Origin: an uncultured virus (IMG/VR IMGVR_UViG_2811995097_000007)
Lineage: Duplodnaviria; Heunggongvirae; Uroviricota; Caudoviricetes
DNA: 20,797 bases
Reading direction: 5' to 3' (one strand)
Virus record (IMG/VR): IMGVR_UViG_2811995097_000007
The position numbers and the translations under genes were made by a program. Under the pieces are notes generated by a model that had not been told where the DNA came from, searched no databases, and saw nothing but the letters and a program-made list of their open reading frames with translations. This document shows, in pieces, positions 3,186-19,806 of this stretch (position 1 is the stretch's first letter; each line of letters opens with the position of its first letter).

Positions 3186-3229
3186 AGTCCTCCCTGTTGT
3201 TTTTCACGATATGCCAGACCCTCATTCCT

Positions 3230-3238: not shown

Positions 3239-3302
3239 ATTCGGCCCGCTCACCGCTTCCGCCCATACGGGGCGGGCCGTTCGTGCAGAAATTTTCCGTA
3301 GG

Positions 3303-3760: not shown

Positions 3761-3821
3761 AACAACAAACACGAACCGCGCCAAAGCGCGTCAAACGAAC
3801 TCAAAAAAAAGGAACTACACT

Positions 3822-4055: not shown

Positions 4056-4095
4056 CCAATGCTCTTTTCTATACCCACCACAGGACACGGACGCA

Positions 4096-4926: not shown

Positions 4927-4998
4927 AAGACACTCCTTCTTTCGGATTCAGATGAACTTAATAGCAGGGAGCCTATTCACAAACAAGAGGAGGCGATC

Positions 4999-5223
4999 AT
5001 GGCCACCAAGAAGATCACCATGCACGACACTCTCCAACTGCAACGGATGCGCAAGGTCCAGGAACTGCTGCAAAAGGGTGTTCTCACCTTCAAAGACCTG
5101 CGCTCCATCTGCCCCCGCGACGACCAGCGGGCCGACCTGGTCGCCAGGATGCTGGCGGGCGGCCTGATGGACGCCACCTTTTACCCCAAACCTTTGCCCA
5201 ATCAGGAGGTAGCCAATGGCTAA
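4999..5223 (+). CDS. Hypothetical early protein, 74 aa
   Basis: GAGGAGG RBS before ATG 4999. The stop overlaps the next gene's start region. Confidence 0.7.
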   Translation: MATKKITMHDTLQLQRMRKVQELLQKGVLTFKDLRSICPRDDQRADLVARMLAGGLMDATFYPKPLPNQEVANG

Positions 5224-5518
5224 AACCGGCACTTCGGCTCGGCGCGCACTGGCCGTTCTTCGTATTCTCAAAGGCCACACCCTGCATGGCCTGTCCAACG
5301 GCGAAATAGCCAAGGCCCTGGACGAGAAGCCCGTCAACATCACCCGCGCCCTGGATGTCCTCACGGATGAAGGGTTGGTCAACAAACTCGAAACGGGCCG
5401 ATACGCCCACTCCATAGGCATGCTGCAAATCGCACAGGCCCACGCCAACGAAATGAATCAGGCTCAATACAAGATTCAGGAAATCAACAACCGCGTCGCT
5501 GCCGGAGCGATGAACTAG
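5216..5518 (+). CDS. IclR-type winged-HTH DNA-binding protein
   Basis: 'RRALAVLRIL...GLSNGEIAKALDEKPVNITRALDVLTDEGLV...GRY'. AGGAGG RBS. Confidence 0.8.
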   Translation: MAKTGTSARRALAVLRILKGHTLHGLSNGEIAKALDEKPVNITRALDVLTDEGLVNKLETGRYAHSIGMLQIAQAHANEMNQAQYKIQEINNRVAAGAMN

Positions 5519-5539
5519 ACCACGAAGGAGACTGACCCC

Positions 5540-6652: not shown

Positions 6653-6655
6653 GCC

Positions 6656-8374: not shown

Positions 8375-8377
8375 ACC

Positions 8378-9532
8378 ATGACCAAATTGAAGGAGTTACT
8401 TGAAAAGAATGGAGTCTCACAGCGCAAGCTGGCGCGGGAGTTGGAACTCTCCCCGGCTGCTGTGAACAGCATTGTCAATCAAGACGAGTGGCCCAAACGC
8501 GCCGACAAGAAGGCACTCCAGGCCACCATCAGGAAACAGCTGCGCAAGGCTGGAGCGAACGAAAACAAGGTCAAGCACCTGTTCCGAAAGACCCGCGCCC
8601 AAATAGTCAAACCCACTGAGAAGGAGGATGATTTCATGTTGTTGAGAAAGCAGGGGCTGTACCCCGAAACCAAGAGGCACTTCAAGCTGGCGGCCAATCC
8701 CTTTGAAGAGATTCGCGGCAATGAGGACGTGTTCCTTTCTAACGAGATCAGGTACGTCCGGGAAAGCCTCTGGCACACCGCACGGCATGGCGGCTTCATG
8801 GCCGTGGTCGGCGAATCCGGCTCCGGCAAGTCCACGCTGCGCCGTGACCTTTGTGACCGGATCGCCCGCGAAGGCCAGCAGGTCCATGTGATGGAGCCGT
8901 ATGTGCTCGGCATGGAAGACAACGACAAGAACGGCAAGACGCTCAAGGCGTTGCACATTGCCGAGTCCATCATGTCCACGGTCAAGCCTCTGGAGCGCAT
9001 TCTCTCCAGCCCGGAAGCCAGGTTCCGCCAGGTTCACAAGACCCTGCGCGAAAGCCGCCGCTCCGGTTGGTCGCACTGCCTCATCATTGAGGAAGCCCAC
9101 GCACTGCCCATTCCGACCATCAAGCACCTCAAGCGCTTCCTGGAGCTGGAAGACGGGTTCCGCAAGCTCATCTCCATCGTTCTGCTCGGCCAGCCCGAAC
9201 TCATGCAGAAACTGAGCGAATCCAGCCCCGAAGTGCGCGAGGTCGTACAGCGCTGCGAGGTGGTGGAGCTGGCCCCGATGAACGGCAGCTTGCCCAAGTT
9301 CGTGGATTTCAAATTCGAGCGCGTTGGCGCGACCCCCGCCGAGATCATCACCACCGATGCGGTGGAGGCGATCCGCGCCAAGTTGACCGGCCCGGCCTCC
9401 CGCTCCGGCGCTGGCGATTCCCTTTCCCTGGTCTACCCGCTGGCCGTGATCAATCTGCTCACCGCCGCCATGAACCTGGCTGCGGACATCGGCGCACCGA
9501 CCATCACCCCGGACATCATTGAACAGGTCTAG
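8378..9532 (+). CDS. Transposition ATPase (B protein; ExeA/AAA_22-like) with N-terminal HTH
   Basis: N-terminal HTH 'VSQRKLARELELSPAAVNSIVN', Walker A GESGSGKS, Walker B LIIEEAH, 'IVLLGQPEL'. Follows the transposase. Confidence 0.93.
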   Translation: MTKLKELLEKNGVSQRKLARELELSPAAVNSIVNQDEWPKRADKKALQATIRKQLRKAGANENKVKHLFRKTRAQIVKPTEKEDDFMLLRKQGLYPETKRHFKLAANPFEEIRGNEDVFLSNEIRYVRESLWHTARHGGFMAVVGESGSGKSTLRRDLCDRIAREGQQVHVMEPYVLGMEDNDKNGKTLKALHIAESIMSTVKPLERILSSPEARFRQVHKTLRESRRSGWSHCLIIEEAHALPIPTIKHLKRFLELEDGFRKLISIVLLGQPELMQKLSESSPEVREVVQRCEVVELAPMNGSLPKFVDFKFERVGATPAEIITTDAVEAIRAKLTGPASRSGAGDSLSLVYPLAVINLLTAAMNLAADIGAPTITPDIIEQV

Positions 9533-9540
9533 GAGGCAAC

Positions 9541-9795
9541 ATGAAGCTCACGCCCATTCAGGACATGAACGATACCCGCAGACAGACCCAAAATCAGGCA
9601 TGGCCCTGGAACGCTCAGGGCCTCATTGGCAGCAAGATCGCCGGACAGGCGCTTGCACTGAAAGGACTGATCCAGCGCGATATGGCCAGCCGGACCATTG
9701 AGGAGGCAAACCGTATCTGCGACGCGATCATCACAACCGCAGAACAGGTTGAAAACCTGGAGCATGCACCGCTTATCGGAGGAACACATGGATAA
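9541..9795 (+). CDS. Hypothetical early protein, 84 aa
   Basis: AGGAGG RBS; fills the gap between the ATPase and DUF3164. Confidence 0.7.
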   Translation: MKLTPIQDMNDTRRQTQNQAWPWNAQGLIGSKIAGQALALKGLIQRDMASRTIEEANRICDAIITTAEQVENLEHAPLIGGTHG

Positions 9796-10393
9796 CGTTG
9801 AACACATGGTTAATGGCAAAGGCCATCTGGTTCCTGTGGAACAGGTGTCGGATTACGACAAGGCTAAAAACGATCTGGTCATAGAGACTATTGATGAGGT
9901 CGAAAGCCTCCAAGCCGTATTGAAGGAATTCAAAACGGCCATCCTGGGCAATGTCGCCGCATTCATGGAGATCGCGGCGGAGAAGTATGGAGCCAAGGTG
10001 GGCGGCAAAAAAGGCAACGTCCAGTTGCTTAGTTATGACGGCAACCTCCGGGTGCAGCTGGCTGTAGCCGAGTTCCTGACTTTTGACGAACGGCTCCAGG
10101 TCGCCAAGTCTCTGGTGGATGAATGCCTGAACGAGTGGACCGAAGACTCCCGGCCCGAAGTCCGCACCCTGGTGAACATGGCCTTTGAGGTGGACAAGCA
10201 GGGCAACGTATCTCCTTCCAAGATTCAGCCGTTGCTCAAGCTCGAAATCCATGACGAGAAATGGCAACGCGCCATGGCCGCGATCCGCGACAGCCTCACC
10301 GTCCAGTACAGCAAGCAATATATCCGCTTCCACCGACGCTCCGGCCCGGAAGGCAAGTGGGAATCCATCCCGCTGGATATAGCGGCACTGTAG
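9788..10393 (+). CDS. DUF3164 family Mu-like phage protein
   Basis: 'GHLVP', 'GGKKGNVQLLSYDG', 'FDERLQVAKSLVDECLNEW', 'KQYIRF', 'IPLDIA'. GGAGG before ATG 9788. Confidence 0.88.
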   Translation: MDNVEHMVNGKGHLVPVEQVSDYDKAKNDLVIETIDEVESLQAVLKEFKTAILGNVAAFMEIAAEKYGAKVGGKKGNVQLLSYDGNLRVQLAVAEFLTFDERLQVAKSLVDECLNEWTEDSRPEVRTLVNMAFEVDKQGNVSPSKIQPLLKLEIHDEKWQRAMAAIRDSLTVQYSKQYIRFHRRSGPEGKWESIPLDIAAL

Positions 10394-10416
10394 GAAATCA
10401 GTTCCAGGAGTGACCT

Positions 10417-10707
10417 ATGAATAACGCACCACGTTTCAAAAAGGATTACCCCGGCAAAACTGTCATGCTGTTCCGCAATGCGCCGGAAGATCGTTCCAAC
10501 CTGTTTACGGAAGGCGCGACGGCAAGGGTGGAGCGACGAGTCAAGGCTGAGGAGACCAAACTTGGCCACTGGCCGCTTCCCGGTGACGGTGCAAGCTGGT
10601 GGCTTCGTCTTGAAATTCGATGCCCACATTGCAACGCGCACCATCAGGCGTTCGTGCCTGAATCCTGGATTGAACAGGGATTAATAGTGTTCAAGGTGGA
10701 GGATTGA
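10417..10707 (+). CDS. Hypothetical protein with CxxC (CPHC)
   Basis: AGGAG RBS; operon context. Confidence 0.65.
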   Translation: MNNAPRFKKDYPGKTVMLFRNAPEDRSNLFTEGATARVERRVKAEETKLGHWPLPGDGASWWLRLEIRCPHCNAHHQAFVPESWIEQGLIVFKVED

Positions 10708-10895
10708 TGCCCAGGTTCAGAGTCACCACGGATAACGGTCACCTTGTGATCCACGACAACAACGAGGGGCGGCCCGTGGTGGCTATCCTGCCTAACACAA
10801 AGAACCCCAACGCGCCGCTCAACATCGCCAAGGTATGCAGTGAAAAGCTGAACGAGGTTTGGGAAGCGCACGAGAAGAAGGAGCAAAGCAAATGA
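10707..10895 (+). CDS. Hypothetical small protein
   Basis: GGAGG RBS and TGATG coupling to the upstream gene. Confidence 0.65.
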   Translation: MPRFRVTTDNGHLVIHDNNEGRPVVAILPNTKNPNAPLNIAKVCSEKLNEVWEAHEKKEQSK

Positions 10896-11146
10896 AATAC
10901 ACAGCCGAGATCAGCAAGAAAGTGATGAAAACCATCACCATCGAAGTTCCCGACCATGTGACCGAAGAAGACGTCAAAGAGTTCACCGACGAAGCCATAG
11001 ATGACCTCTTTGATCTTGAAGATTACCAGGGCACGGTCAAGTGGCAGGAAGATGATTTCTTCGACTCTCCCGTGGATATGACTTTGGTGGCAAGCGACGA
11101 TGGCCACGAATACGAACTGGACGGATTCGGCCAGGCCGAAGCGTAG
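10892..11146 (+). CDS. Small, highly acidic protein, 84 aa
   Basis: AAGGAG RBS, ATGA overlap. By hand count 25 Asp/Glu versus 6 Lys and 0 Arg. Confidence 0.75.
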   Translation: MKYTAEISKKVMKTITIEVPDHVTEEDVKEFTDEAIDDLFDLEDYQGTVKWQEDDFFDSPVDMTLVASDDGHEYELDGFGQAEA

Positions 11147-11221
11147 TCCATCAAAGGTAGGGCAACCCCGGTTGTCCTGTCGAATGATGGAGCTACTTAA
11201 TCAAACAATAGCGAGGTAGAG

Positions 11222-11656
11222 ATGAACGTTAAGTGCAAAAAGGGAATCATGCCCGCCCGTCCGTTGTGCTTCGGCAGCCATGCCATCAACGAAAAGAATG
11301 AACGGCGCACCTGCATGGAAACTTGTGAACATGAGTTCGAGTGCTTTCATGGAAGCACCATGCTGGCCCCGTCCGATCTGGAGCTGGCACAGGCCCTGAA
11401 TCGTGTTCTCTTGCGTGAGAATGGCCAACTTGCGGCACTGGTTCATACAGGCCGCATGCGAGACATTGAAGTCATTGGTTGGCTTGCTGAGATTTGTGAG
11501 CGCAACGACACCCACGTTGATTCCATAGATTCGAGCGACATGCCCATTGAAGACGTGAGCCTTGGCGATTTGCGCGGCCTTTGTCTCACGGCTCACAGCG
11601 TCATTTTTGCCCAGGGGAGAATGAAACGCGCAGCCCGGATCATACCGCGCTCATAA
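11222..11656 (+). CDS. Hypothetical protein, Cys-rich N-terminus
   Basis: GAGGT RBS; 144-aa ORF in operon orientation. Confidence 0.65.
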   Translation: MNVKCKKGIMPARPLCFGSHAINEKNERRTCMETCEHEFECFHGSTMLAPSDLELAQALNRVLLRENGQLAALVHTGRMRDIEVIGWLAEICERNDTHVDSIDSSDMPIEDVSLGDLRGLCLTAHSVIFAQGRMKRAARIIPRS

Positions 11657-11747
11657 CGACATGAGCGACCATTACCGCTGCAAACTCTGCGGAGCGTCAT
11701 GGATATATGACCCGCCCTGCGGATGCGAAGAAGAGAAGGAGCAAACC

Positions 11748-12203
11748 ATGGCAATGACAAACAAGGGTAAGCAATGGAGGACAAGCCTGATCAGGAAGGC
11801 CAAGACCATCCAGAACCAGGTTCTCCATATGTCGGCAGAGGATTACGAAACCATGCTGCTGGTGCGCTACAACAAGAGTTCCACGGCTGACCTATCTATT
11901 AATGAATTGAAAGACCTCTGCGCCTATCTGGACACCCTCACAGGTAAAGAGCCTGACAAGAAGCAACCGCCCAAGGTTGATCCCCAGGCCCGAAAAATAT
12001 GGAAGCTCTGGCAGGAGCTGCACGAGATCGGCGCTGTGCGCGATCCTAGTGCCAAAGCCCTCAACGCCTTCATCAAGAATCGTTGCAACATCTCTGTGGA
12101 GTCCTACACCTGGCTCAGTTCCCACCAGGCCAGTGACGTTATCGAAATACTCAAGCAGTGGTTGAAGCGAGTAGAGCGGAAGAATCAGACAGTCAATGGA
12201 TAG
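11748..12203 (+). CDS. gemA: GemA / gp16 (DUF1018) regulatory protein
   Basis: 'DYETMLLVRYNKSSTADLSINEL', 'RKIWKLW...ALNAFIK...WL...ASDVIEILKQW'. AAGGAG before ATG 11748. The ORF is also open from 11661. Adjacent to mor. Confidence 0.82.
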   Translation: MAMTNKGKQWRTSLIRKAKTIQNQVLHMSAEDYETMLLVRYNKSSTADLSINELKDLCAYLDTLTGKEPDKKQPPKVDPQARKIWKLWQELHEIGAVRDPSAKALNAFIKNRCNISVESYTWLSSHQASDVIEILKQWLKRVERKNQTVNG

Positions 12204-12209
12204 GTAAGC

Positions 12210-12557
12210 ATGAGCGATACGAGAAAGCCCGCCACGGCACTTTTGAATGACCTGGCTGACCACCTGGCCGAGAAGGCCCACAAAGACCTTAACATCCCCA
12301 GGGCGAAGGCCAAAGAGTTCAGCGAGGACACCACGGCCTATATCGCCGATCTGTGGGGCGGTCAGATTCTGTACATCCCCAAGGACATGGCAGGACGTAT
12401 CTGCTCAAGAGACGCCAAAATCTATGCTGACTTCGTTGGTGACAACCACTCCGAGCTGGCCCGTAAGTACGGGTTGTCTTTCCAGCACATCCACCGTATC
12501 ATCAAAAAAGAGCGGGAGAAGCGTAGCGTCAAGCAACACGATCTCCCGCTCGTCTAG
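12210..12557 (+). CDS. mor: Mor/C family transcription activator
   Basis: 'WGGQILYIPK...RDAKIYADFVGDNHSELARKYGLSFQHIHRII'. Confidence 0.92.
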   Translation: MSDTRKPATALLNDLADHLAEKAHKDLNIPRAKAKEFSEDTTAYIADLWGGQILYIPKDMAGRICSRDAKIYADFVGDNHSELARKYGLSFQHIHRIIKKEREKRSVKQHDLPLV

Positions 12558-12560
12558 GCT

Positions 12561-12675
12561 GTTTCAGTATGTGTAAAAGAGTTTCAGGAATGTCCGTCCC
12601 GGTATATCCCGTTTCTTCCCGGATAGTCCCGTTTATCTCACACCTACTACTTAGTTATAACGTGGGGTCTCAACA
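12561..12675. repeat. Candidate prophage end with phased repeats (transposase-binding region)
   Basis: GTTTCAG at 12561 and 12581. TCCCG at 12597, 12607, 12617 and 12627. TCTCA at 12636 and 12668. Ends in CA (12672 or 12675). Confidence 0.6.
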
Positions 12676-12728
12676 TCGGATTGACAGCTTTTGACAACCT
12701 GGGCATTCGCGCTCTCAAGGCTTCTTAT

Positions 12729-13313
12729 TTAATTTTCATATATGATTAATGCCTGAGCAATAAGGTCACACATGGGAGCCTCATCGGAGACTCCTTCAAT
12801 GCATGCAGCGAGCCAATCATCTGTTAGCTTCTCTACATCAAGGTCAAAGCCGGCGTTCTGAGCCAACAATGACAGAAAGTAACGCAAACATCGGCCGTTA
12901 CCTTCTCTGAAAGGATGTGCCATATTCAGTTCTAAAACGTAATGGGCAGCTCGTTCTACGAAATCCTGTGGGGAAAGCCCCTTCAACTTGTTCTCATTAG
13001 ATAGATTTTTTAGAAGTGAAGTGACCACATTCTCAATAAAACGAGGGTTGGCGAACTGCGTGTTTCCCTTGCTAATAGAAACATTTCTTTCTTCTCCTGC
13101 CCAATCATAGACATCTTGAAAGAGATGAAGATGAAGGGATTTGAGGTGAGCATAATCAAATTTGCCCGCGGGTGGGTCCTCCATCATGCGGTTAGCAACA
13201 GAAAGGCGCTCGAATTTATCAAGCGCCTCCTGAGTTTTATGTCCGCCCTTACTCTTGAGGACCGAAGAATTGTGGTATGTATATGCGTCCCTATGCGCGT
13301 ATCGTGTTGTCAT
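12729..13313 (-). CDS. fic: Fic-family toxin (VbhT/FicT-like AMPylase)
   Basis: Canonical HPFREGNGR motif and 'LHLHLFQDVYDWAGEER.V.ISKG..FA'. Confidence 0.93.
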   Translation of the reverse strand: MTTRYAHRDAYTYHNSSVLKSKGGHKTQEALDKFERLSVANRMMEDPPAGKFDYAHLKSLHLHLFQDVYDWAGEERNVSISKGNTQFANPRFIENVVTSLLKNLSNENKLKGLSPQDFVERAAHYVLELNMAHPFREGNGRCLRYFLSLLAQNAGFDLDVEKLTDDWLAACIEGVSDEAPMCDLIAQALIIYEN

Positions 13314-13527
13314 AGTCAGGGAAACGCTCTTTTAAAAGGTTTGTGCGTTCTTCAATTGAACATCCCTTTTTGATGCACTCTTCAAAGACAGAGACTTCTT
13401 CCGCAGAAAGCTTCAATCCTTCTATCTCTAGAGAGGCTTTTGCATGCCTGAAGCGACGAGCCATGACTTCAACTTTAGTTCTTGGCCGTTTGTTCTTAGT
13501 GAAAGTGTATTTGCGCTTTTGAGTCAT
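13291..13527 (-). CDS. VbhA/FicA-like antitoxin
   Basis: 78 aa, overlaps the fic start, carries the inhibitory (S/T)xxxE(G/N) motif as SLEIEG. Confidence 0.85.
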   Translation of the reverse strand: MTQKRKYTFTKNKRPRTKVEVMARRFRHAKASLEIEGLKLSAEEVSVFEECIKKGCSIEERTNLLKERFPDYDNTIRA

Positions 13528-13762
13528 GCTAATACAATAATGCTTAGAGTAAGAAAAAGCAAACTCGCCATTATAAGAAAACCTTCAGCGGCTTTTTCGG
13601 TATGCCTTATGAGTGGGGGGGCAAATTGGCCAAAGAGTCTATTCGATTAATATGTAAAACTGGTGTGAGGCTATTGTCTGTAAGTCAGTGCCGTATAATT
13701 TAAGACCCAGACATACTTAAAATACGTATGGGTCTGTGTTTATTTTGGGATAAAATGACGAA

Positions 13763-15124
13763 TTATTGATCAATCATTTTTGCTGGAATTGATGCCTTCC
13801 TCAAAACGTCAGCAACATGACTAGACATACCAACGTGGCCTATCACATTTATGCCGGAACCGGTCTGAAGAGCTTGTTCTACTAGCGACCTTAGTTCTGA
13901 CAACCTACTTCCTACTTTGTACTCCAGCCAAGAAGAGGCTTCTCCTGGGACGATGATTCTTCCAGAACTGATGGAACGCCCTTTGTGGAGTTGAAGAATC
14001 CAAACTTGGCTGCCATCATGGGCCCATTCAAACCTAACGTCTTCTAAGGTCTTAGAGAGTACATCATACTGACTGTTCAAATCGGCAAGAACCTTCTCAG
14101 GGAGAGCTTCGGCTGCAATCTCTCCCTGCATGAAGCGGTCCCCAAATCCTCTAACTCCTTCAACTAACCGTTTCCCGTCTGCATCAGTAATTAAAGCCCC
14201 TGAATACAAAGACTCTACGCCCTCCTGGACAAGACATGAGGCTATCGAACGTCTTTCTGGATCGTCTGAATCCATTAAGGCATATGGGTCTTCCCAGCCT
14301 TGGACAGTAGTAAATCTTCCGGGCTCTTGAACTTTAGGACACGTTCGAGTCCATAAGGAACCAGAACCAGTAGGAGAGCCAAAAGTATAAATTGGTAATA
14401 GTGGATTCCTTGAGAAGGATGTAACCCTAGGAACAGGAGCTCCAAGCAAAGCTGCTACCAACAGTCCATATACTTTATCTCCGAGAAACTGACTAAATGG
14501 ATTCGGCCATACAAAATGGGGAGGAATGGAAATTTCCTCAAGCTCTTCAACTTCCCATATGATCGTATGCTGATGGCACCATCCTCGCGCCTTCGGATGA
14601 ATACTAAATTCAACCCGATGCCCTTCATGGTAGTCTAGATCGGGTCGAAAACCGTATACGATTTCCAACAAATCTAATGCCAATTTAATTGGCAACGAAG
14701 GAATTGGGGTATCGCTGTCCTTTTCAACAAACCGTGGCGTCACTCCTGGGGCAAACTCTATACAACCACCTTGAAGGGCTCCCGACACTCCCCCATCATC
14801 AACATCGATAGTTTCGTTGATGATGACAAAGAATCCTTCTGATGTGAGCCTCCTAATGTGAGCAAGAGCTATTGAAGAATCCTTAATTCCGTAATGAAAC
14901 TCATTCCCTTGAAGCTGGTCTGGCTTAAAACTGCGAACATTGATTGAAGCTTCCGGAGAGGCCCCAAGGAGGGCTTCAACTGCACTGATAGTGTTTTTGA
15001 ATTTGATATTGGCATTGTACCCAAAAACACGTGAGTAACGCTGATCTTCACCTGGGCCAAAGCTAACAAACTGAGCAACATTTGCGTTTGAAGCTAGTTG
15101 ATCAAGAACTTCATCTTTGTACAT
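13763..15124 (-). CDS. Protein with two PEP-synthase/PPDK-like ATP-grasp modules and a C-terminal phospho-His swivel-like motif (putative dikinase-type phosphotransferase)
   Basis: Second module: LVQEGV, YSGAL, LVEGVRGFGDRFMQGE, RFEWAHDGSQVWILQL. First module has parallel motifs (NVRSF, IINETI, VSGAL, IEFAPG, RVEFS, IIWEV). C-terminus GMSSHVADVLRKASIP resembles GxTSHAAIVARELGIP. Confidence 0.68.
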   Translation of the reverse strand: MYKDEVLDQLASNANVAQFVSFGPGEDQRYSRVFGYNANIKFKNTISAVEALLGASPEASINVRSFKPDQLQGNEFHYGIKDSSIALAHIRRLTSEGFFVIINETIDVDDGGVSGALQGGCIEFAPGVTPRFVEKDSDTPIPSLPIKLALDLLEIVYGFRPDLDYHEGHRVEFSIHPKARGWCHQHTIIWEVEELEEISIPPHFVWPNPFSQFLGDKVYGLLVAALLGAPVPRVTSFSRNPLLPIYTFGSPTGSGSLWTRTCPKVQEPGRFTTVQGWEDPYALMDSDDPERRSIASCLVQEGVESLYSGALITDADGKRLVEGVRGFGDRFMQGEIAAEALPEKVLADLNSQYDVLSKTLEDVRFEWAHDGSQVWILQLHKGRSISSGRIIVPGEASSWLEYKVGSRLSELRSLVEQALQTGSGINVIGHVGMSSHVADVLRKASIPAKMIDQ

Positions 15125-15695
15125 CTGTAAGCTCGTATTTCTTCAATTTATCAAGCGTTTTTTTCATTTTACTAATATCTAGTCCCAAATCACTTAGTTC
15201 TTTCAACGACGAGGAAATCGATTTAATAGCATCCAATGCCTGTATATATTTACCTCGCAAGTCGTATGTTGGCAGACTCAGTTCTTTTGCTGTGACGTAT
15301 TCTATAACGCACCCATTGCTGTAGTGCCATCCATCATTAAAAATCATTTTTTTGGAATACTTACCAATAACAGCACACCAAAGCGCCAAGTATTTCTCTT
15401 GAGACCATTTTGGCATATCAAAACAAGCCGGATCAATAACATACTCATTGGTCTTTTTCCTAATCTCGGCTGTTATTGATTTTGACTCCATGCAATTTGG
15501 GGTAAGCACATTTTCCATAAATGACTGCTCATACTCATTTGATCCTTGATCAAAATTATTACTCTTAATCCATTCGATAAAGCGCAAGCCATTTGTCATT
15601 GGAGTGCTAAAGTAGATTCCTTTATTATCTCCGAGGACGCATGCTATTATATTGCATGCTGAACGGACCGAGTCGTCTAGTGTAAATGATTTCAT
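15111..15695 (-). CDS. Nucleoside 2-deoxyribosyltransferase-superfamily (DUF4406-like) protein
   Basis: 'IYFSTPMTNG', 'VIDPA', 'W...Y...W', 'IFNDGWHYSNGCVIEYVTAKELSLP', matching the IY.S.P.TG / .PA / GW..S.G...E...A..L pattern. Confidence 0.72.
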   Translation of the reverse strand: MKSFTLDDSVRSACNIIACVLGDNKGIYFSTPMTNGLRFIEWIKSNNFDQGSNEYEQSFMENVLTPNCMESKSITAEIRKKTNEYVIDPACFDMPKWSQEKYLALWCAVIGKYSKKMIFNDGWHYSNGCVIEYVTAKELSLPTYDLRGKYIQALDAIKSISSSLKELSDLGLDISKMKKTLDKLKKYELTDVQR

Positions 15696-17935
15696 ATGGC
15701 AGATTCAAAAAGCTCATTCAGTTCGGGGTCATTGCATTTCTCTTTGAAAAACTTGTGCAACTCATTGCCTTTCATAAAGCTCAGTTTATGCTTTATGCAC
15801 TTAATAAAGTCTGAGTCACTTTTCGAGTGGTCTTTGATGAGCTTAAAGCCTTCCTGCTCACAATCTTGGTTAACAATTGCATACAGAAGAGCATACTCTA
15901 CTACCAAAGAATGTCCTCCATCTATAATGCTTATATTCTCTTTCTCATCTTTCTCGTACAACCGCCCTCGATAATGATCGAGTTTGATTGAAGGGTACCG
16001 ATCTCCCTTGAGATCTTTAAAGGTGCACCCCGCAGTACTTTTAGCAACAGCGGGATCTGTTACTATTTTTTTGCGTAAAGAATACGCTGGAGGCATTAAG
16101 GGTAATATAAAGTCAACTCGTCCTTTTCTTTTTATTGCAGGATCGATTCTCTCTTCATAGTTTGTAGCAATGATGAAAATTGACCTCTCTCGCTTTCGCA
16201 AATCATTAATCTTGGGGAGCATGCCCGGGGTCATAAACTGAAAAATTCCAGTCTGCTCTCTGTAACGAGAAGTCTCCCTATCAAGCAAAAACTGATCGAT
16301 CTCATCGAACAGAATTACTGCGTCTTTCTGTTCCTCTAAACACTTAAATATTGCTTTAGCCCTCGCTTCAACCTCACCAGCTCCTCCAGCAAGGAAATCA
16401 CTGGGGGTAACTGTAATGAACTTCCACTTGAGTGCTTTAGCAATATTCTCTCCAACCGTGCTTTTCCCAGTGCCAGGGGGGCCATATAAGAGCATCGAGT
16501 AGTGCTCGGCTTTAGTACTTCTATTTCTGGGCTTAATAAATTTATCCCCTATAAAACTATATATTCTGAGCCTGCTGTTGAGGCCAAGCTCTTGAATTGG
16601 TTCGAATTTATCGACAATGTTATTATCCCAATAAACTGTTGCTTCTTTATTCTTATTGCTTGCTTTGCGGATTGGTTGCTCGACTTTAAGACCCGATGCT
16701 TCCAAACTTCTACGAGCAATTCTATCCTGCAAAATATGCCTATAATTAATCAAAAAACACAAAATTTCACTTGTTTGGAAGAGGTGGATTTCATTTTCAC
16801 CTCCGACATGCTCGGAAGCCCAGCCCCAACATGGCTTTTGTTCACTATCACTATTGATATCAACTTCTCTGATTTGAGCTTTAAGCCATCTGAAGTATCT
16901 TTTGAACATAGCAGAGTGCTTTGAAAAAAGACTTTCCTTGCTGTCGTCATGGTCAAGCAAGCAGCAAATCCGTAACAATGAGTTTGCAACTTCTACGCTC
17001 AGTGGCAATAAGATTTGACCTTGTGCTGTTGCATAGATTGGATTGATTGGTCGCCAATATGGAGTCAAATTCTGAACGGCCTCAAGTACCTCAAAGGCTC
17101 GTTGAATTGTTTCTTGACTGACGGCCTCTCTCTTGCTCCTAAGCGCGCCCTCAAGACTAAATACTAACTCTGCAGGATCAAAACGACTGTCAGGTATATC
17201 ACTATAAGAAAGGTGAAGGTGAAGGCGTCTTTCAAAAAAATCAAATGGGTCACTGGGCTCTTGAGAGCCCACCTTCTTTATTAGCTGCAACAACCGCAAA
17301 GATATGAATGAGTGAACGTTTTTTTCTGGTGGCTTGATATCATACTGAGTCCCGGATGGACCCACCTTTTTTTCTGGTGGAAATTCAAGAATTTCATTGG
17401 AGGCAAACGCTCCCATCCTGTTAGCTTGTTTTTTTATTGTATTTATTACATTAGAGTCGCCTGAGTCATCTAAGCCATCTTTAAATAATTCTGCACACCA
17501 CAGAAGTGAAAGTGGATCATTGTCGCCATAGGTTGCAGAACTGGTAATAGGTTTGTTTTTGTTCATCCTATCCACAATTCTTTCACGATACTCTTCAAGG
17601 GCTAACTGGCTGTTCTCCGACCAATCAGTTGGGCACTCCATACCAGGAAGACAAAAAACTGACTCAGCAGGTACTTTAGGAAATAGTACATCCCTATCGA
17701 CATTGCGATCCTCTGCAAGCCTAACCATTGTCAAAATCATTGAATTGGTGCTGGTAGAATATCCTTCTGGAAAATCAGGCTTAGTACTGTTTACCTTATA
17801 TGGCCACGCCATCTTATCTTTTGAAAATGTATGGCTGAAGGTGTGAAGTACCTTTTTTATGATTGAATCAAGTTCTTCTAGTTCTTGAAAATCTTTCTTG
17901 TACTCATTTTGAAAATACACTTCGAGATCGTTCAT
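15692..17935 (-). CDS. Classical-clade AAA+ ATPase with a large (about 430 aa) uncharacterised helical N-terminal domain
   Basis: Walker A LLYGPPGTGKS, Walker B VILFDEID, sensor-1 IIATN, second region of homology IDPAIKRKGRVD. TAAGGT RBS. Confidence 0.9.
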   Translation of the reverse strand: MNDLEVYFQNEYKKDFQELEELDSIIKKVLHTFSHTFSKDKMAWPYKVNSTKPDFPEGYSTSTNSMILTMVRLAEDRNVDRDVLFPKVPAESVFCLPGMECPTDWSENSQLALEEYRERIVDRMNKNKPITSSATYGDNDPLSLLWCAELFKDGLDDSGDSNVINTIKKQANRMGAFASNEILEFPPEKKVGPSGTQYDIKPPEKNVHSFISLRLLQLIKKVGSQEPSDPFDFFERRLHLHLSYSDIPDSRFDPAELVFSLEGALRSKREAVSQETIQRAFEVLEAVQNLTPYWRPINPIYATAQGQILLPLSVEVANSLLRICCLLDHDDSKESLFSKHSAMFKRYFRWLKAQIREVDINSDSEQKPCWGWASEHVGGENEIHLFQTSEILCFLINYRHILQDRIARRSLEASGLKVEQPIRKASNKNKEATVYWDNNIVDKFEPIQELGLNSRLRIYSFIGDKFIKPRNRSTKAEHYSMLLYGPPGTGKSTVGENIAKALKWKFITVTPSDFLAGGAGEVEARAKAIFKCLEEQKDAVILFDEIDQFLLDRETSRYREQTGIFQFMTPGMLPKINDLRKRERSIFIIATNYEERIDPAIKRKGRVDFILPLMPPAYSLRKKIVTDPAVAKSTAGCTFKDLKGDRYPSIKLDHYRGRLYEKDEKENISIIDGGHSLVVEYALLYAIVNQDCEQEGFKLIKDHSKSDSDFIKCIKHKLSFMKGNELHKFFKEKCNDPELNELFESAI

Positions 17936-18232
17936 ATTTAACCTTAGTATCCTTTGGAGTTTTCAGCGTGACATTGAGGACTGAATAACTAAAGCAAGCA
18001 TAATGAGCAACAAGATGAATTCTAGGGACAAAATGGCTATTGGAAGACTTTAATCTTTGTGGGGAAAGAGCATTTTGCAAACAACAAGAGGATGGGAATA
18101 TTTCAGTGATTTTTCAAAAGTTACAAATGTTTAGAATGCTTTTTTTAAAAAAATTCTGCTGAATAGTGTTTTTTTACAAATCTTAATTAATAGTCTTGAA
18201 AGTCTGATGCCTGCCTTCGAAAACACAAAGCT

Positions 18233-19243
18233 TCATCGTGCCTTACCTGCTAACCTATCAGCTAGCCTACTGGATCTTAAGTGAGTATAGCGTTTCAACA
18301 TCTGCAAATTCTGATGCCCCGTGATCTCCGCTATCTCCAAAATGTCCAGATCAGTGCTTTCAAATAGTCTCGATGTGGCTTCATGTCGAAGATCGTGGAA
18401 AGTCAGATCTGTAATCTCTGCCTCCTCTCTCGCCCTTCGCATTGCAATCGTTATAGCGTTTTCACTCATCCCAAATACTGAGCCTGAAATCTGTCGAGGG
18501 ATGCTTTTTAGTATTCCTAATGCAGTTGGTGAGAGAGGTACTATTCTTTCGGACATATTTTTTGTTTCAGAAAGATAAGCCGTCCTACCCTGAAGGTCGA
18601 CTTTGTCCCACTTGAGATTGGCTATTTCAGATCGGCGCATGGCCGTTTCAATTGCAAATTGAACTACCGGTCGGAAGCGCTCTCCACAAGCTTCTATAAG
18701 GCGTTCCTCTTCACTCTTTGCGCCTTCGCTCGGAGCCGGCTGCAATCTGCGGGTTCTGCCTCCATTCAATTTGGGCTTTCTGGCCCGTTTTACCGGATTG
18801 CTCAGGCTTTCCATGCCCCAATCGTTTCCGGCAACTTCGAATAATCGTGAAAGTATTGCCAGATCAAGACGGATGGTGTTGGGCTTCACTCCCTCTTCTT
18901 CGCGTTCCCTGATGAACTCGGCAATGTGTTTGCTGCGGATGGTGGCAAGGTACAGATTTGCTATTTCTCGCTGCTGTAGAGCTCTAGCGCGGCGTGTTTC
19001 ATTGGCAACCATTTTGAGGTTGGGGATGTACTCTTCGATGAAGCGGTCCAGAGCTTCATAAAGTGTGGTAGACTCAGCCTCTTTGCGGGAGACAAATACA
19101 CCGCGGTCCATCTCATTTTCAATATCTCGTGCCCACTGTTCGGCGTCTGACTTTCGCTCAAAGGTTTTGCTCTGAGCGGGGTAGCCTTTGCGCCTAACTT
19201 TAGCTTGCCATTGATGTTTGCCGCGTTTGGAGATCGTAGCCAT
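18233..19243 (-). CDS. Tyrosine recombinase / site-specific integrase
   Basis: Catalytic set ETAMRRSEI (R), TKN (K), FHDLRH (HxxR), TGH (H), KRYTH (Y). N-terminal arm-binding-like 'WQAKVRRKGYPAQSKTF'. Confidence 0.95.
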   Translation of the reverse strand: MATISKRGKHQWQAKVRRKGYPAQSKTFERKSDAEQWARDIENEMDRGVFVSRKEAESTTLYEALDRFIEEYIPNLKMVANETRRARALQQREIANLYLATIRSKHIAEFIREREEEGVKPNTIRLDLAILSRLFEVAGNDWGMESLSNPVKRARKPKLNGGRTRRLQPAPSEGAKSEEERLIEACGERFRPVVQFAIETAMRRSEIANLKWDKVDLQGRTAYLSETKNMSERIVPLSPTALGILKSIPRQISGSVFGMSENAITIAMRRAREEAEITDLTFHDLRHEATSRLFESTDLDILEIAEITGHQNLQMLKRYTHLRSSRLADRLAGKAR

Positions 19244-19806
19244 TATCTTGCCTCTTCTAAGTGGGGGAGTGCGCGGAGCAGCCAGCCAGGAACTTCTTCG
19301 TCGGTGAGAGTTATGCTTCCGTTCGTGATAGTTGCTACAGTTCGGTCCTGCCGTCTGGAATTATCGATGATGACAGCACGGTCAACCACCGAAAGCGCTT
19401 TCTCCAGATTGTTCATACTGCGGCCATACCTTCGAATGACGTCTTCATCCGGGACATGGTGACCGCCAAGGGCGACTCTTTGTTTGATGCGGTGGATGGA
19501 GTCTTGTGGGCTTTCCAGGGCAACATAAAACAGCTCCACATCATATCCGTTTTGCTTGGCGAGCTGCATGAGCTTGAAATCAAAATTTGATGTCATAGTG
19601 GATTCTTTGGCGAAAGATATGCCCTCGGCAATGAATCGTTTCACTCTTCTTGATGTCTCTTTACCTGCAGCAATGGGGTGGAGGTCTTCGAGCTTGGCGA
19701 TCAGGTCAGGGTCAACCACCGGCATGATGTCTCGGAGGCTTGTTTTAGTCGTGAAGGTGCTTTTGCCGGAACCGTTGGGTCCACATATCATGAGTAGGAG
19801 GGGCAT
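19243..19806 (-). CDS. Zeta-toxin-like P-loop kinase (COG4185-like)
   Basis: GPNGSGKST, VDPD, 'SFAKEST', 'RVALGGHHVPDEDVIRRYGRS', 'IIDNS'. Confidence 0.87.
   Translation of the reverse strand: MPLLLMICGPNGSGKSTFTTKTSLRDIMPVVDPDLIAKLEDLHPIAAGKETSRRVKRFIAEGISFAKESTMTSNFDFKLMQLAKQNGYDVELFYVALESPQDSIHRIKQRVALGGHHVPDEDVIRRYGRSMNNLEKALSVVDRAVIIDNSRRQDRTVATITNGSITLTDEEVPGWLLRALPHLEEAR

What the first reader, a model, noticed from the sequence alone, without database searches (positions are those of the whole stretch)
13763..15124. Internally duplicated PEP-synthase-like ATP-grasp protein with a minimal His swivel and no pyruvate-binding barrel
Seen: motifs in the N-half parallel those in the middle (NVRSF/WTRTC, IINETI/LVQEGV, VSGAL/YSGAL, IEFAPG/VEGVRG, RVEFS/RFEWA, IIWEV/WILQL), followed by GMSSH(436)VADVLRKASIP. 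Established: PPDK-family dikinases use one ATP-grasp, one His swivel and one acceptor domain. Inference: the acceptor domain here is itself a diverged ATP-grasp, so the enzyme may shuttle phosphate or pyrophosphate between two nucleotides and yield an unusual nucleotide product.
Basis: partly seen in the sequence, partly recalled or inferred. Interest (0 to 1): 0.75.

Follow-up and report, generated by a model that had tools for sequence, protein, structure and literature searches.

The report
Tandem ATP-grasp phosphohistidine enzyme, unnamed family
This gene encodes a member of a widespread, unnamed enzyme family built from two ATP-binding modules and a very short carrier segment with an invariant histidine, which probably moves phosphate between nucleotides together with a neighbouring nucleotide-cleaving enzyme on a mobile island.

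Summary
The ORF 13763-15124 (-) is real: 453 aa, with every quoted motif in place. It matches no Pfam, NCBIfam, PADLOC or PHROG family. It belongs to a large family of 668 clusters at 50% identity.

His436 is kept in 253 of 254 relatives. The protein ends 17 residues after it, with no TIM barrel.

The DUF4406/NDT-like neighbour is fused to this domain in 28 of 29 long relatives. Other relatives sit beside HD nucleotidases, membrane proteins or AAA+ ATPases, or inside phage replication modules.

Best reading: a His-dependent dikinase with a second nucleotide site that acts on (deoxy)nucleotides. The chemistry is untested. I rate it a new variant of a known kind, interest 0.7.

The parts
13763..15124 (-). 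Whole gene, 453 aa: tandem ATP-grasp plus C-terminal His436 segment (P0001).
   Evidence: ORF and translation. More than 1264 homologues, none with a name or Pfam domain. AF2 model pLDDT 93.7.
14516..15124 (-). Residues 1-203: N-terminal ATP-grasp-fold module, the proposed acceptor or second nucleotide site. It carries the family's most conserved motifs (K3-D4, N62-x-R64, N103-E104-T105, D110-GGVSG115, R170-x-E172, W190-E191).
13940..14515 (-). Residues about 204-395: PPDK-type nucleotide-binding ATP-grasp (K217, R260, Q300, E366, Q378, H380).
13766..13939 (-). Residues about 396-453: minimal phosphohistidine-type segment (beta-alpha-beta-alpha-beta). The His436 codon is at 13817-13819.
   Evidence: Secondary structure. 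The structural alignment reaches model residue 453 against PPDK residue 473 and RPH residue 843. hhalign aligns GMSSHVADVLRKASIP with GGdTSHAAItSRElGIP. His436 in 253/254 and 91/92.
15111..15695 (-). P0002, 194 aa: DUF4406 / nucleoside 2-deoxyribosyltransferase-like partner. Its stop overlaps the start of P0001 by 14 nt.
   Evidence: Pfam DUF4406 E 0.0046, below cut-off. phrog_355 E 3.9e-4. ESM Atlas features and structure point to DUF4406 clusters. Fused to the P0001 domain in 28 of 29 long relatives. Invariant Y28, S30, T34, G36, N67, R79, W123, S126, G128, C129, E132.
15692..17935 (-). P0003, 747 aa: N-terminal domain of about 470 aa (possibly an alpha/alpha toroid) plus a C-terminal classical AAA+ ATPase. 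It is the first gene of the operon and overlaps P0002 by 4 nt.
   Evidence: Pfam AAA E 1.3e-24 at residues 481-611. Best PADLOC match IetA, E 2.6e-16, AAA part only. Atlas structure rows: squalene-cyclase/glycoamylase-like, TM 0.51-0.54. Homologues precede DUF4406 and P0001 in 9 of 91 loci and on a Burkholderia plasmid.
18233..19243 (-). Tyrosine integrase at the edge of the low-GC island (context, not part of the enzyme system).
   Evidence: Pfam Phage_integrase E 7.2e-27. phrog_1 E 1.2e-60. GC 0.37-0.45 for the three operon genes against 0.57 for window 1-12600.

Best explanation
P0001 is a histidine-dependent phosphotransfer enzyme of the PPDK / PEP-synthase / rifampin-phosphotransferase (dikinase) superfamily, with an architecture not described before.

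Shown (predicted model and conservation):
- Residues about 204-395 form a PPDK-type ATP-grasp.
- Residues about 396-453 form a cut-down phosphohistidine segment carrying the near-invariant His436. In the model it docks on that ATP-grasp as in the ATP-site-engaged conformers of PPDK and RPH.
- Residues 1-203 form a second, highly conserved ATP-grasp fold that keeps an Arg / Glu / Glu set at positions parallel to the nucleotide/Mg site of the C half.

Inferred:
- The C-half site uses ATP to (pyro)phosphorylate His436.
- The segment then delivers the phosphoryl or pyrophosphoryl group to a second ligand held in the N-half ATP-grasp, most likely a (deoxy)nucleotide.
- The enzyme works with the translationally coupled DUF4406/NDT-like protein P0002, probably in physical association, because the two are one polypeptide in many relatives.
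- In other relatives the partner is an HD phosphohydrolase of the YfbR (5'-deoxynucleotidase) group. The simplest common denominator is that P0001 makes or consumes (d)NMP and the partner processes it.
- The three-gene operon (AAA+, DUF4406, P0001) lies on a low-GC integrase island next to toxin-antitoxin-type genes. It is most likely a nucleotide-centred conflict (phage-defence-type) module, with the AAA+ protein as regulator or sensor.
For: Fold:
- The N half alone is an ATP-grasp.

Sequence:
- hhalign places E366/Q378 and His436 on the Mg-site and catalytic-His motifs of PPDK/PpsA-like proteins (E 4e-4 to 7e-4).
- One relative hits Pfam PPDK_N at E 0.0016.

Conservation over 268 relatives: H436 253/254, E366 257/257, Q378 255/256, K217 266/268, R64 257/257, R170 268/268, E172 267/268, E191 247/268.

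Partner:
- 28 of 29 relatives of 560 aa or more among the top 150 representatives are DUF4406::P0001 fusions.
- A DUF4406-family gene lies within 4.5 kb in 40 of 91 loci.
- HD + DUF7002 + kinase-PurA-like genes are present in 28 of 91 loci.
- The HD partner matches Atu1052 at E 3.9e-22 and YfbR at E 0.025.
- Stop/start overlaps of 14 and 4 nt link the three genes.

Mobility and conflict context:
- GC drop across the island.
- Integrase, zeta-like kinase and Fic (PADLOC PDC-S04, E 1.6e-64) are neighbours.
- 14 plasmid copies.
- The P0001 tree groups by partner type.
- Variable third components include four unrelated families with TM-like segments.

Phage copies sit next to a dNMP kinase, primase-helicases and SSB.
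Against: - No biochemical evidence of any kind.
- The N half has no detectable sequence relation to PPDK_N (probability 0.08%) or to the C half. Nucleotide binding there rests on fold and on recalled ATP-grasp logic.
- The His segment is about 55 residues, roughly half of a canonical swivel domain. Pfam PEP-utilizers is not hit.
- P0002's DUF4406 hit is below Pfam's cut-off, and its profile finds no solved structure.
- P0001 and its partner families hit no PADLOC model.
- Only 8 of 111 sampled flank ORFs (8 of 31 loci) hit PADLOC at E <= 1e-10, there was no background control, and none of these was in the 13 rhizobial-type loci sampled.
- 20 of 91 loci show none of the recognised partners.
- Standalone phage copies show that the enzyme does not need the NDT-like partner.
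Confidence: 0.5

Rival explanations
1. Signal generator. P0001 uses its two nucleotide sites and His436 to make a nucleotide-derived second messenger, for example a 3'- or 5'-(pyro)phosphorylated nucleotide. The variable third components (3-4-TM proteins, larger proteins with TM-like segments, AAA+) would be the effectors that respond to it. The DUF4406/HD partner would trim or degrade the signal.
For: - A constant enzyme pair with interchangeable third components, four of them with TM-like segments, resembles the layout of nucleotide-signalling defence systems (recalled knowledge).
- There are two nucleotide-type folds in one enzyme.
- The P0001 tree tracks the partner type.
Against: - No recognisable sensor domain for a nucleotide was found in the partners (Pfam and PADLOC empty).
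- DUF4406::P0001 fusions fit a two-step pathway better than a synthase plus degrader.
- Standalone phage copies in replication modules are hard to explain as host alarm-signal synthases.
Confidence: 0.2
2. A dikinase for a non-nucleotide acceptor (a small molecule, antibiotic-like compound or protein side chain), as in rifampin phosphotransferase, phenylphosphate synthase or PTS enzyme I. The N-half ATP-grasp fold would be only a binding scaffold.
For: - The closest structural relatives include RPH, and HpeI is the best match of the N half. These enzymes phosphorylate non-nucleotide substrates (recalled).
- The N half lacks sequence similarity to nucleotide-binding PPDK_N.
Against: - The N half keeps an Arg/Glu/Glu set parallel to the nucleotide/Mg site of the C half, and it is the most conserved part of the protein.
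- All recurrent partners that could be classified by family are nucleotide enzymes: DUF4406/NDT-like, YfbR-group HD, dGTPase-like HD+HD_assoc, P-loop kinase fused to a PurA-like domain, and phage dNMP kinase.
Confidence: 0.15
3. Ordinary nucleotide salvage or anabolism, not a conflict system. The enzyme would simply re-phosphorylate (d)NMPs for the cell or the phage, and the island location would be incidental.
For: - Phage copies lie in replication modules next to a dNMP kinase, SSB and primase-helicases.
- PADLOC evidence in flanks is sparse.
Against: - The distribution is patchy: 293 relatives in a collection of 185,579 species genomes.
- Copies sit on plasmids and integrase islands.
- Partners are degradative enzymes, proteins with TM-like segments, and a weakly DarT-like DUF7002 (E 0.14).
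- The window copy lies beside Fic and zeta-like toxin genes.
Confidence: 0.1
4. A classical ATP-grasp ligase (acyl-phosphate chemistry) in which His436 is structural and is not phosphorylated.
For: Many ATP-grasp ligases (Ddl, RimK, DcsG) are among the Foldseek and VIA matches.
Against: - The His sits in a G-x-S-S-H-x-A-D-x-L-R motif that aligns with the catalytic motif of PEP-utilising enzymes and is kept in 253 of 254 relatives.
Confidence: 0.05

Closest known systems
Pyruvate phosphate dikinase / PEP synthase (PEP-utilising enzymes)
   Same: - PPDK-type ATP-grasp directly followed by a His-bearing segment with a G-x-[ST]-S-H-x-A motif.
- Equivalents of the K22, E323 and Q335 positions are kept as K217, E366 and Q378. 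The PPDK numbering is recalled, supported by the mutant titles and the alignments.
   Different: - No PEP/pyruvate TIM barrel.
- The His domain is about 55 residues instead of about 100, and it is C-terminal.
- An extra ATP-grasp module lies in front.
- Arg337 is replaced by His380.
- Pfam PPDK_N, PEP-utilizers and PEP-utilizers_C are not hit.
Rifampin phosphotransferase (RPH, e.g. 5hv3/5hv1)
   Same: - The His domain is at the very C-terminus.
- Three-part logic: ATP-grasp, acceptor domain, His carrier.
   Different: - RPH has about 850 aa, with a dedicated rifampin-binding domain between the ATP-grasp and the His domain.
- Here the acceptor candidate is an ATP-grasp placed before the catalytic ATP-grasp.
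- There is no resistance-gene context.
Split aromatic dikinases (HpeI 9goj; phenylphosphate synthase type)
   Different: Those are single ATP-binding subunits that serve a separate His/acceptor subunit (recalled). Here both modules and the His are on one chain.
Carbamoyl phosphate synthetase large subunit
   Same: It is the precedent for an internally duplicated ATP-grasp in which each copy carries out a different phosphorylation step (recalled). CPS appears among the matches.
   Different: CPS uses no phosphohistidine carrier, has a different ATP-grasp subfamily and is much larger.
NDT-superfamily N-glycosidases in defence (retron Ec86 effector; DNPH1/Rcl type)
   Same: - The partner P0002 belongs to DUF4406, an NDT-like family.
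- NDT-like effectors are known in retron defence. I saw this only in the search listing: titles and abstracts of 10.1101/2023.08.16.553469 and PMC7736814.
   Different: P0002 is not linked to a reverse transcriptase. It is coupled or fused to the tandem ATP-grasp enzyme. Its activity is untested.

Membership tests
PEP-utilising dikinases (PPDK/PEPS/RPH superfamily) | PPDK_N-type ATP-grasp nucleotide-binding domain | tested here: met
   [not shown]
PEP-utilising dikinases (PPDK/PEPS/RPH superfamily) | Phosphohistidine swivel domain with a conserved catalytic His | tested here: inconclusive
   The His is kept in 253/254, and its motif aligns with G-G-x-T-S-H-A-A. The structural alignment extends through it. 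However, the segment is only about 55 aa and Pfam PF00391 is not hit.
PEP-utilising dikinases (PPDK/PEPS/RPH superfamily) | Autophosphorylation of the His from ATP (beta-phosphate retained) | not testable with these tools
   Needs 32P labelling or mass spectrometry.
PPDK / PEP synthase / PTS enzyme I proper | C-terminal PEP/pyruvate-binding TIM barrel (PF02896) | tested here: not met
   The protein ends 17 residues after His436, and homologues end likewise. No such domain is found in P0002 or P0003.
Rifampin phosphotransferase | Rifampin-binding domain between the ATP-grasp and the His domain | tested here: not met
   The only other domain is the N-terminal ATP-grasp fold. The His segment follows the C-half ATP-grasp directly.
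ATP-grasp fold (N half, residues 1-203) | ATP-grasp B + C subdomain topology covering the whole module | tested here: met
   [not shown]
ATP-grasp fold (N half, residues 1-203) | Binds a Mg-nucleotide | not testable with these tools
   Only conserved R64, E172 and E191 at positions parallel to those of the C half. No ligand modelling was available.
Sequence-level internal repeat | Significant similarity between the two halves | tested here: not met
   hhalign probability 0.2%. Profile Smith-Waterman z -0.39 against 60 shuffles.
DUF4406 / nucleoside 2-deoxyribosyltransferase-like (for partner P0002) | Match to the family model and a conserved acidic catalytic residue | tested here: inconclusive
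   Pfam E 0.0046, 17.8 bits against a cut-off of 22. A relative at L034 scores 25.7 bits, above the cut-off. Atlas structure rows name DUF4406. E132 is invariant in 22 sequences. Its equivalence to the NDT catalytic Glu is recalled, not tested.
Known anti-phage defence systems (PADLOC v2.0.0) | Match of the component proteins to a defence-system model | tested here: not met
   P0001 and P0002: 0 families. Partner families X_TM, c8, c10, kinase-PurA, DUF7002 and HD: 0 families. Only the AAA module of P0003 resembles IetA.

The most novel reading that the evidence does not exclude
The enzyme is an NTP:NMP pyrophosphotransferase. His436 takes the beta,gamma-pyrophosphate from a nucleoside triphosphate in one PPDK-type site. 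It hands it to a (deoxy)nucleoside monophosphate in the other site, which is the reverse of the same half-reaction. (d)NMP and (d)NTP are thus interconverted in one step, without NMP kinase or NDP kinase.

In phages this would rebuild dNTPs. In the bacterial operons it would run the other way, and the coupled DUF4406 N-glycosidase or HD 5'-nucleotidase would destroy the dNMP. Together they would drain a dNTP pool, possibly a phage-specific one, while conserving ATP.

A variant of this reading is pyrophosphoryl transfer to a sugar hydroxyl, giving a new alarmone-like nucleotide.
Probability: 0.2. Interest if true: 0.9.

Novelty: new variant of a known kind. Interest (0 to 1): 0.7.

Why it matters
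The dikinase superfamily (PPDK, PEP synthase, rifampin phosphotransferase, glucan-water dikinase) is a textbook case of a swivelling phosphohistidine carrier. In every described member I know of (recalled), one ATP-grasp is paired with an unrelated acceptor domain.

A large unnamed family in which the acceptor is itself an ATP-grasp, and the carrier is cut to about 55 residues, would extend that mechanism. It would suggest direct nucleotide-to-nucleotide (pyro)phosphoryl transfer.

Three observations make it a good candidate for a new nucleotide-pool-based step in the phage-bacterium arms race:
- its fusion to NDT-like enzymes;
- its modular pairing with membrane proteins, AAA+ ATPases and HD nucleotidases on mobile elements;
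- its presence in phage replication modules.

It is also a well-defined target for biochemistry.

Tried and rejected
- Sequence-only routes to a name gave nothing usable. Pfam, NCBIfam, PADLOC and PHROGs were empty for P0001. PDB sequence searches with the protein and with the 57-sequence profile gave best E values of 0.13 and 0.19 to unrelated chains.
- Sequence-level repeat detection between the halves failed.
- The profile of the N half against PPDK/PpsA-like proteins gave nothing.
- The P0002 family profile against PDB gave 0 matches.
- The BFVD viral fold library had no close relative. The best hit was Bacillus phage G Gp139 (E 8e-8, TMq 0.38), followed by generic ATP-grasp proteins.
- 50,697 isolated phage genomes gave no tblastn match.
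- The window's own assembly is not held. The nearest record, provirus G001 (41 kb), lacks P0001, so the Mu-like prophage in window 1-12.5 kb is not the carrier of the operon.
- The scan's earlier notes had nothing for this place or this sequence.
- Eight literature searches found no description of this family: DUF7002; DUF4406 + defense; adenylosuccinate synthetase + anti-phage + defense system; ATP-grasp + deoxyribosyltransferase + conflict systems; dikinase + anti-phage; 2-deoxyribosyltransferase + anti-phage + defense; nucleotide-targeting effectors + immune systems; phosphohistidine + ATP-grasp + phage + swivel. I saw only listings and abstract starts and read no paper. Subscription journals are not covered by the library.
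- The promoter/terminator scan of 12600-18300 was uninformative: 3 promoter-like sites against 11.9 expected.
- I considered and rejected a truncated or pseudogenised PPDK, because all 57 aligned homologues end at the same place.
- I considered and rejected the idea that the N half is a 'pre-ATP-grasp' Rossmann domain of a classical three-domain ligase. It aligns to the B + C (ATP-grasp proper) part of Ddl, RimK, PurK and synapsin, not to their N-terminal domains.
Full report
**1. The object**

The minus-strand ORF 13763-15124 starts with ATG, ends with TAA and encodes 453 aa. The six N-half/middle pairs are collinear, with offsets of 187-199 residues. GMSSH(436)VADVLRKASIP lies at 432-447, only 17 residues before the end.

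The protein matches no model in Pfam (only a sub-threshold ACT_9 hit, E 0.052), NCBIfam, PADLOC or PHROGs. It matches no solved structure by sequence, either alone or as a 57-sequence profile.

It is not an orphan:
- The word-indexed search found 1264 proteins at E <= 0.001 among 8000 scored candidates. All those carrying a name are 'hypothetical protein', and none has a precomputed Pfam domain.
- The exhaustive profile search found 668 clusters at 50% identity with E <= 0.001, of which 338 have E <= 1e-30.
- In one genome per species (185,579 species), 293 stretches encode a relative. They are spread over Desulfovibrionaceae, Acidobacteriota, Cyanobacteria, Bacteroidota, Alpha- and Betaproteobacteria, Gemmatimonadales, Planctomycetota, Actinomycetes and others.
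- 14 plasmids carry a copy, mostly rhizobial.
- 11 IMG/VR contigs carry a copy.
- None of 50,697 isolated phage genomes does.

**2. Is it internally duplicated?**

By sequence, no.
- hhalign of the N-half profile (residues 1-203) against the C-half profile (204-453) gives probability 0.2%, E 0.28.
- My own profile Smith-Waterman score (15.7) lies inside the distribution of 60 column shuffles (16.9 +/- 2.9, z -0.39).
- No ungapped diagonal at offsets 187-199 is among the ten best of 180 offsets.

By structure, yes.
- The AlphaFold2 model built on the 57-sequence alignment is confident (mean pLDDT 93.7, pTM 0.90, no segment under 50).
- Foldseek against the PDB returns ATP-grasp proteins (DcsG, PPDK, Ddl, VanA, PPIP5K2); 26 matches have E <= 0.001.

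I therefore folded residues 1-203 alone on a 45-sequence alignment (pLDDT 93.6). I searched that model against 48,161 representative chains without any Foldseek prefilter.
- Below them come Ddl, CPS, RimK, GAR synthetase and PurK. Practically every one of the 50 rows is an ATP-grasp protein.
- The alignments cover model 1-200 and fall on the B + C (ATP-grasp proper) part of the targets, not on their N-terminal Rossmann-like domains.
- Foldseek agrees: DcsG E 2.4e-5; RimK E 3.3e-4 and weaker.

The protein is therefore a tandem of two ATP-grasp modules, both of which have PPDK-type chains among their best structural matches, that have diverged beyond sequence recognition.

**3. The His segment**

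After the second ATP-grasp comes a linker (about 382-398) and then a small beta-alpha-beta-alpha-beta unit (399-451). His436 sits at the start of its second helix.
- The structural alignments to PPDK end at model 453 / chain 473. Those to RPH end at model 453 / chain 843.
- With the catalytic residues recalled as His455 (PPDK; the entry title 'T453A mutant' fits this) and His825 (RPH), the offsets from the His to the end of the alignment are 17 in the model and 18 in both targets.
- hhalign of the family profile against seven PPDK/PpsA-like proteins taken from five genomes aligns GMSSHVADVLRKASIP with GGdTSHAAItSRElGIP, and RFEWAHDG..VWILQLH with DtEF...LwfvQaRP. The scores are probability 25.6% / E 7.4e-4 for the whole protein, and 34.3% / E 4.2e-4 for the C half. 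This is weak on its own but agrees with the fold match.
- The PPDK entries in which I recall the His domain facing the nucleotide site (1kbl, 1dik, 2dik, 1ggo, 1jde) and the RPH AMPPNP form 5hv3 align through the His segment.

From these ranges I infer that the model places the His segment against the C-half ATP site, as in the ATP-engaged state. I could not inspect coordinates, so the distance to the N-half cleft is unknown.

The segment is about half the size of a canonical swivel domain, and Pfam PEP-utilizers is not hit. 'Minimal His swivel' is a fair description. No TIM barrel exists in this protein or in the two upstream gene products. All 57 aligned homologues end within about 10-30 residues of the motif, so this is the native architecture.

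**4. Conservation**

Over 268 family members aligned to the family HMM:
- His segment: His436 253/254 (one Arg), S435 246/253.
- C half: K217 266/268, R260 267/268, Q300 262/264, E366 257/257, Q378 255/256, H380 214/255 (otherwise N or Q).
- N half: K3 250/252, R64 257/257, E104 262/262, D110 257/263, G112 257/263, G115 259/263, R170 268/268, E172 267/268, W190 268/268, E191 247/268 (18 Q).

In the 92 sequences compared (91 loci and the window's own), His436 is present in 91. The exception, L077, has a match that stops at residue 394.

The N half is if anything the more constrained: mean column identity 59% (A2, 45 sequences) against 54% for the whole protein (A1, 57 sequences), two different sequence sets. 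NETxDVxDGG is the most conserved stretch of the family. It is not a decayed copy.

**5. The operon and the island**

P0001 is the last gene of a three-gene operon on the minus strand.
- P0003 (15692-17935, 747 aa) has a classical AAA+ module at residues 481-611 (E 1.3e-24). Its best PADLOC match is IetA, for the AAA part only.
- The N-terminal domain of P0003 (about 470 aa) has nearest Atlas structures of squalene-cyclase / glycoamylase-like alpha/alpha toroids (TM 0.51-0.54). This is a lead only.
- P0002 (15111-15695, 194 aa) is DUF4406/NDT-like.
- The genes overlap by 4 and 14 nt.
- Their GC is 0.37-0.45, against 0.57 for window 1-12600.
- Beside them lie a tyrosine integrase (18233-19243), a zeta-toxin-like kinase (19243-19806) and a Fic protein (12729-13313; PADLOC PDC-S04, E 1.6e-64). 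A 78-aa upstream ORF (13291-13527) carries an S-x-x-x-E-G motif.
- The left 12.5 kb is the early region of a Mu-like prophage: repressor-like regulators, transposase 6656-8374, MuB-like 8378-9532 and a late activator 12210-12557.
- The nearest held record, a complete 41-kb provirus sharing 26% of the window's words, does not encode P0001. The operon therefore belongs to a separate integrative island, not to that phage.

**6. The partner**

P0002's own DUF4406 hit is below cut-off (E 0.0046, 17.8 against 22 bits). Other evidence supports the assignment:
- It also hits phrog_355, 'nucleoside 2-deoxyribosyltransferase' (E 3.9e-4).
- A relative at L034 passes the Pfam cut-off.
- The ESM Atlas places it, by features (0.96) and by structure, among DUF4406 / DUF1937 / DUF7768 clusters.
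- The Burkholderia gladioli plasmid copy is annotated 'DUF4406 domain-containing protein'.
- Fifteen positions are invariant in 22 sequences, including S126-x-G128-C129-x-x-E132. That E132 corresponds to the catalytic Glu of NDT/DNPH1 enzymes is my recollection, not a test.

The strongest link is natural fusion. Of the 150 best family representatives, 29 have 560 aa or more, and 28 of these carry a P0002-family domain in front of the P0001 domain (E 3.7e-07 to 5.9e-61 against a local HMM). Pfam sees DUF4406 weakly in 7 of 21 of them. The two proteins thus act together, very probably in contact. The complex predictor was not available to test this.

**7. Contexts elsewhere**

I used local HMMs over six-frame ORFs within 4.5 kb in 91 loci: 80 genomic and 11 viral. 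The HMM seeds came from the same loci, so the counts are descriptive.

| Loci (of 91) | Partners found |
|---|---|
| 13 | DUF4406 + X_TM, a small protein with 3-4 TM-like segments |
| 9 | DUF4406 + P0003-type AAA+ |
| 8 | DUF4406 + c10, a 570-670-aa protein with TM-like segments |
| 6 | DUF4406 + c8, an 840-960-aa protein with TM-like segments |
| 4 | DUF4406 alone |
| 28 | HD phosphohydrolase + DUF7002 + P-loop kinase fused to a PurA-like domain |
| 3 | Part of that HD / DUF7002 / kinase-PurA set |
| 20 | None of these (three of them have 400 nt or less of upstream sequence) |

In all, 40 of the 91 loci have a DUF4406 gene nearby. Further details on the partners:
- In three viral contigs the AAA+ gene is followed by a DUF4406::P0001 fusion.
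- The B. gladioli plasmid has the same AAA+ - DUF4406 - P0001 order as the window. Its ATPase is 36% identical to P0003 over residues 1-642.
- In the 28-locus set the HD protein matches Atu1052 at E 3.9e-22 and YfbR at E 0.025, and the PurA-like domain hits Pfam Adenylsucc_synt at E 1.4e-56. DUF7002 resembles DarT only weakly (E 0.14).
- Among the 20 'none' loci, four have a dGTPase-like HD + HD_assoc gene next door (L036, L048, L076, L097). Seven are viral contigs with phage-type genes nearby:
  - L095/L096: DnaB-like helicase, primase, the homologue, DnaJ, RuvC, a PD-(D/E)XK nuclease.
  - L103: PrimPol-helicase, then the homologue, then directly a deoxynucleoside monophosphate kinase (phrog_139, E 3.2e-33).
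  - L100/L101: SSB upstream and terminase downstream.
  - L097: portal and head-tail joining genes.
  - L102: an AAA ATPase, a RuvC-like resolvase, an RF-1-domain protein and an RNA ligase.
- These phage copies keep every checked residue.
- A FastTree tree of 91 sequences (L077 left out; no support values read) groups P0001 by partner type. The phage sequences lie inside or beside the AAA+/DUF4406 clades.

None of the partner families matches a PADLOC model. I sampled 111 of the 185 flank ORFs of 180 aa or more, at most 4 per locus, from 31 of the 38 picked loci. Eight ORFs in 8 loci hit PADLOC at E <= 1e-10: PDC-S23, AbiEi, HEAT-ARM_XIII, ThsB, PDC-M06B, GajB/UvrD-type, RmrA and DEDDh. All eight are DUF4406-type loci and none is among the 13 rhizobial-type loci sampled. 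I had no background rate to compare with.

**8. Mechanism**

Shown, on predicted structure and conservation:
- two ATP-grasp modules;
- a near-invariant His in a PEP-enzyme-type motif, docked on the second module;
- no other acceptor domain;
- obligatory association with a DUF4406/NDT-like enzyme in a large part of the family.

Established for the superfamily (recalled textbook knowledge):
- The ATP-grasp transfers the beta,gamma-pyrophosphate of ATP to the His, releasing AMP.
- The gamma-phosphate goes to Pi or water.
- The His then carries the beta-phosphate to the acceptor domain.

Inferred here: the C half is the ATP site, the His436 segment is the carrier, and the N half is the acceptor site. 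Three points suggest the acceptor is a nucleotide:
- The N half has an ATP-grasp fold with its own conserved Arg/Glu/Glu set.
- Every recurrent partner that can be classified handles nucleotides.
- The two alternative partners that replace each other (an NDT-superfamily enzyme and a YfbR-group HD) are both related to enzymes that act on 2'-deoxynucleoside 5'-monophosphates (recalled).

So the most economical scheme is that P0001 produces or consumes (d)NMP. Producing NMP from NTP is exactly the nucleotide half-reaction of a dikinase.

The boldest consistent version is a symmetrical NTP:NMP pyrophosphotransferase, in which the second site runs the first half-reaction backwards. The island location, the toxin-type neighbours, the modular third components and the patchy, plasmid- and phage-linked distribution argue for a conflict role. 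The standalone phage copies in replication modules argue that the core activity is a nucleotide-pool reaction useful to either side.

**9. Comparison and novelty**

The protein works like a PPDK / PEP-synthase / RPH-type dikinase. It passes the fold test for the nucleotide domain and, partly, for the His domain. It fails the defining tests for PPDK/PEPS/EI (no TIM barrel) and for RPH (no rifampin-binding domain).

Carbamoyl phosphate synthetase is the precedent for a duplicated ATP-grasp, but it has no His carrier.

Eight literature searches (listings and abstract starts only, no paper read) found no description of this family or of a DUF4406-dikinase pair. The library lacks most subscription journals, so prior comparative-genomics mentions cannot be excluded.

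I rate it a new variant of a known kind, carried by a large unnamed family, with untested but well-constrained chemistry.

Noticed in passing
window 12729-13527 (-): A Fic protein (194 aa; Pfam Fic E 2.6e-17; PADLOC PDC-S04 E 1.6e-64; NCBIfam VbhT-like E 5.7e-38) is preceded by a 78-aa ORF (13291-13527) that overlaps it by 23 nt. The small ORF contains SLEIEG, which fits the S-x-x-x-E-G inhibitory motif of FicA/VbhA antitoxins (motif recalled). This is probably a separate FicT/FicA toxin-antitoxin pair just downstream of the operon.
   Followed up: partly
window 1-12600: Early region of a Mu-like transposable prophage at GC 0.57: repressor-type regulators (3303-3794, 4096-4545, 5216-5518), MuA-like transposase (6656-8374, phrog_310 E 8e-101), MuB-like transposition protein (8378-9532) and a late transcriptional activator (12210-12557). 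An Rz-like spanin gene lies on the opposite strand at 392-1096. A complete 41-kb provirus record shares 26% of the window's words but lacks the P0001 gene.
   Followed up: partly
window 19243-19806 (-) and 18233-19243 (-): A zeta-toxin-like P-loop kinase (187 aa, Pfam Zeta_toxin E 3.8e-10) whose stop codon shares one base with the start codon of the tyrosine integrase gene. No antitoxin partner was looked for.
   Followed up: no
window 15692-17935 (-), residues 1-470 of P0003: The N-terminal domain of the AAA+ protein has no family hit. The ESM Atlas structural neighbours are squalene-hopene-cyclase / prenyltransferase / glycoamylase-like alpha/alpha toroids (TM 0.51-0.54). That would be an unusual partner for an AAA+ module.
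   Followed up: partly
L013:6388-9415, and 27 other loci of the same type, mostly alphaproteobacterial (rhizobial): A conserved four-gene neighbourhood: a YfbR-group HD phosphohydrolase, the P0001 homologue, DUF7002 (weak N-terminal resemblance to the DNA ADP-ribosyltransferase DarT, E 0.14) and a 530-aa fusion of a P-loop kinase with an adenylosuccinate-synthetase-like domain. An HTH gene often lies beside it, and in L014, L017 and L061 a PUA-calcineurin gene. None of these matches a PADLOC model. It looks like an undescribed nucleotide-modifying conflict system.
   Followed up: partly
L005:5527-6252, L006:4291-5133, L039:1772-2707 and relatives (13 loci): A small protein (215-310 aa) with the conserved N-terminal motif KLEYEQAAxRYENIYKAIWQxFSY, 3-4 TM-like segments and a C-terminal coiled-coil-like tail. 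It always lies directly upstream of the DUF4406 and P0001 genes. In L056 and L004 it is fused to the DUF4406 domain. Its only hit is a weak one to DUF6161 (E 2.6e-4).
   Followed up: partly
L103:8001-9927 and L095:5198-12180: Metagenomic phage contigs carry standalone P0001 homologues inside replication modules. In L103 a deoxynucleoside monophosphate kinase gene follows directly. In L095 the homologue lies between primase and DnaJ/RuvC genes.
   Followed up: partly
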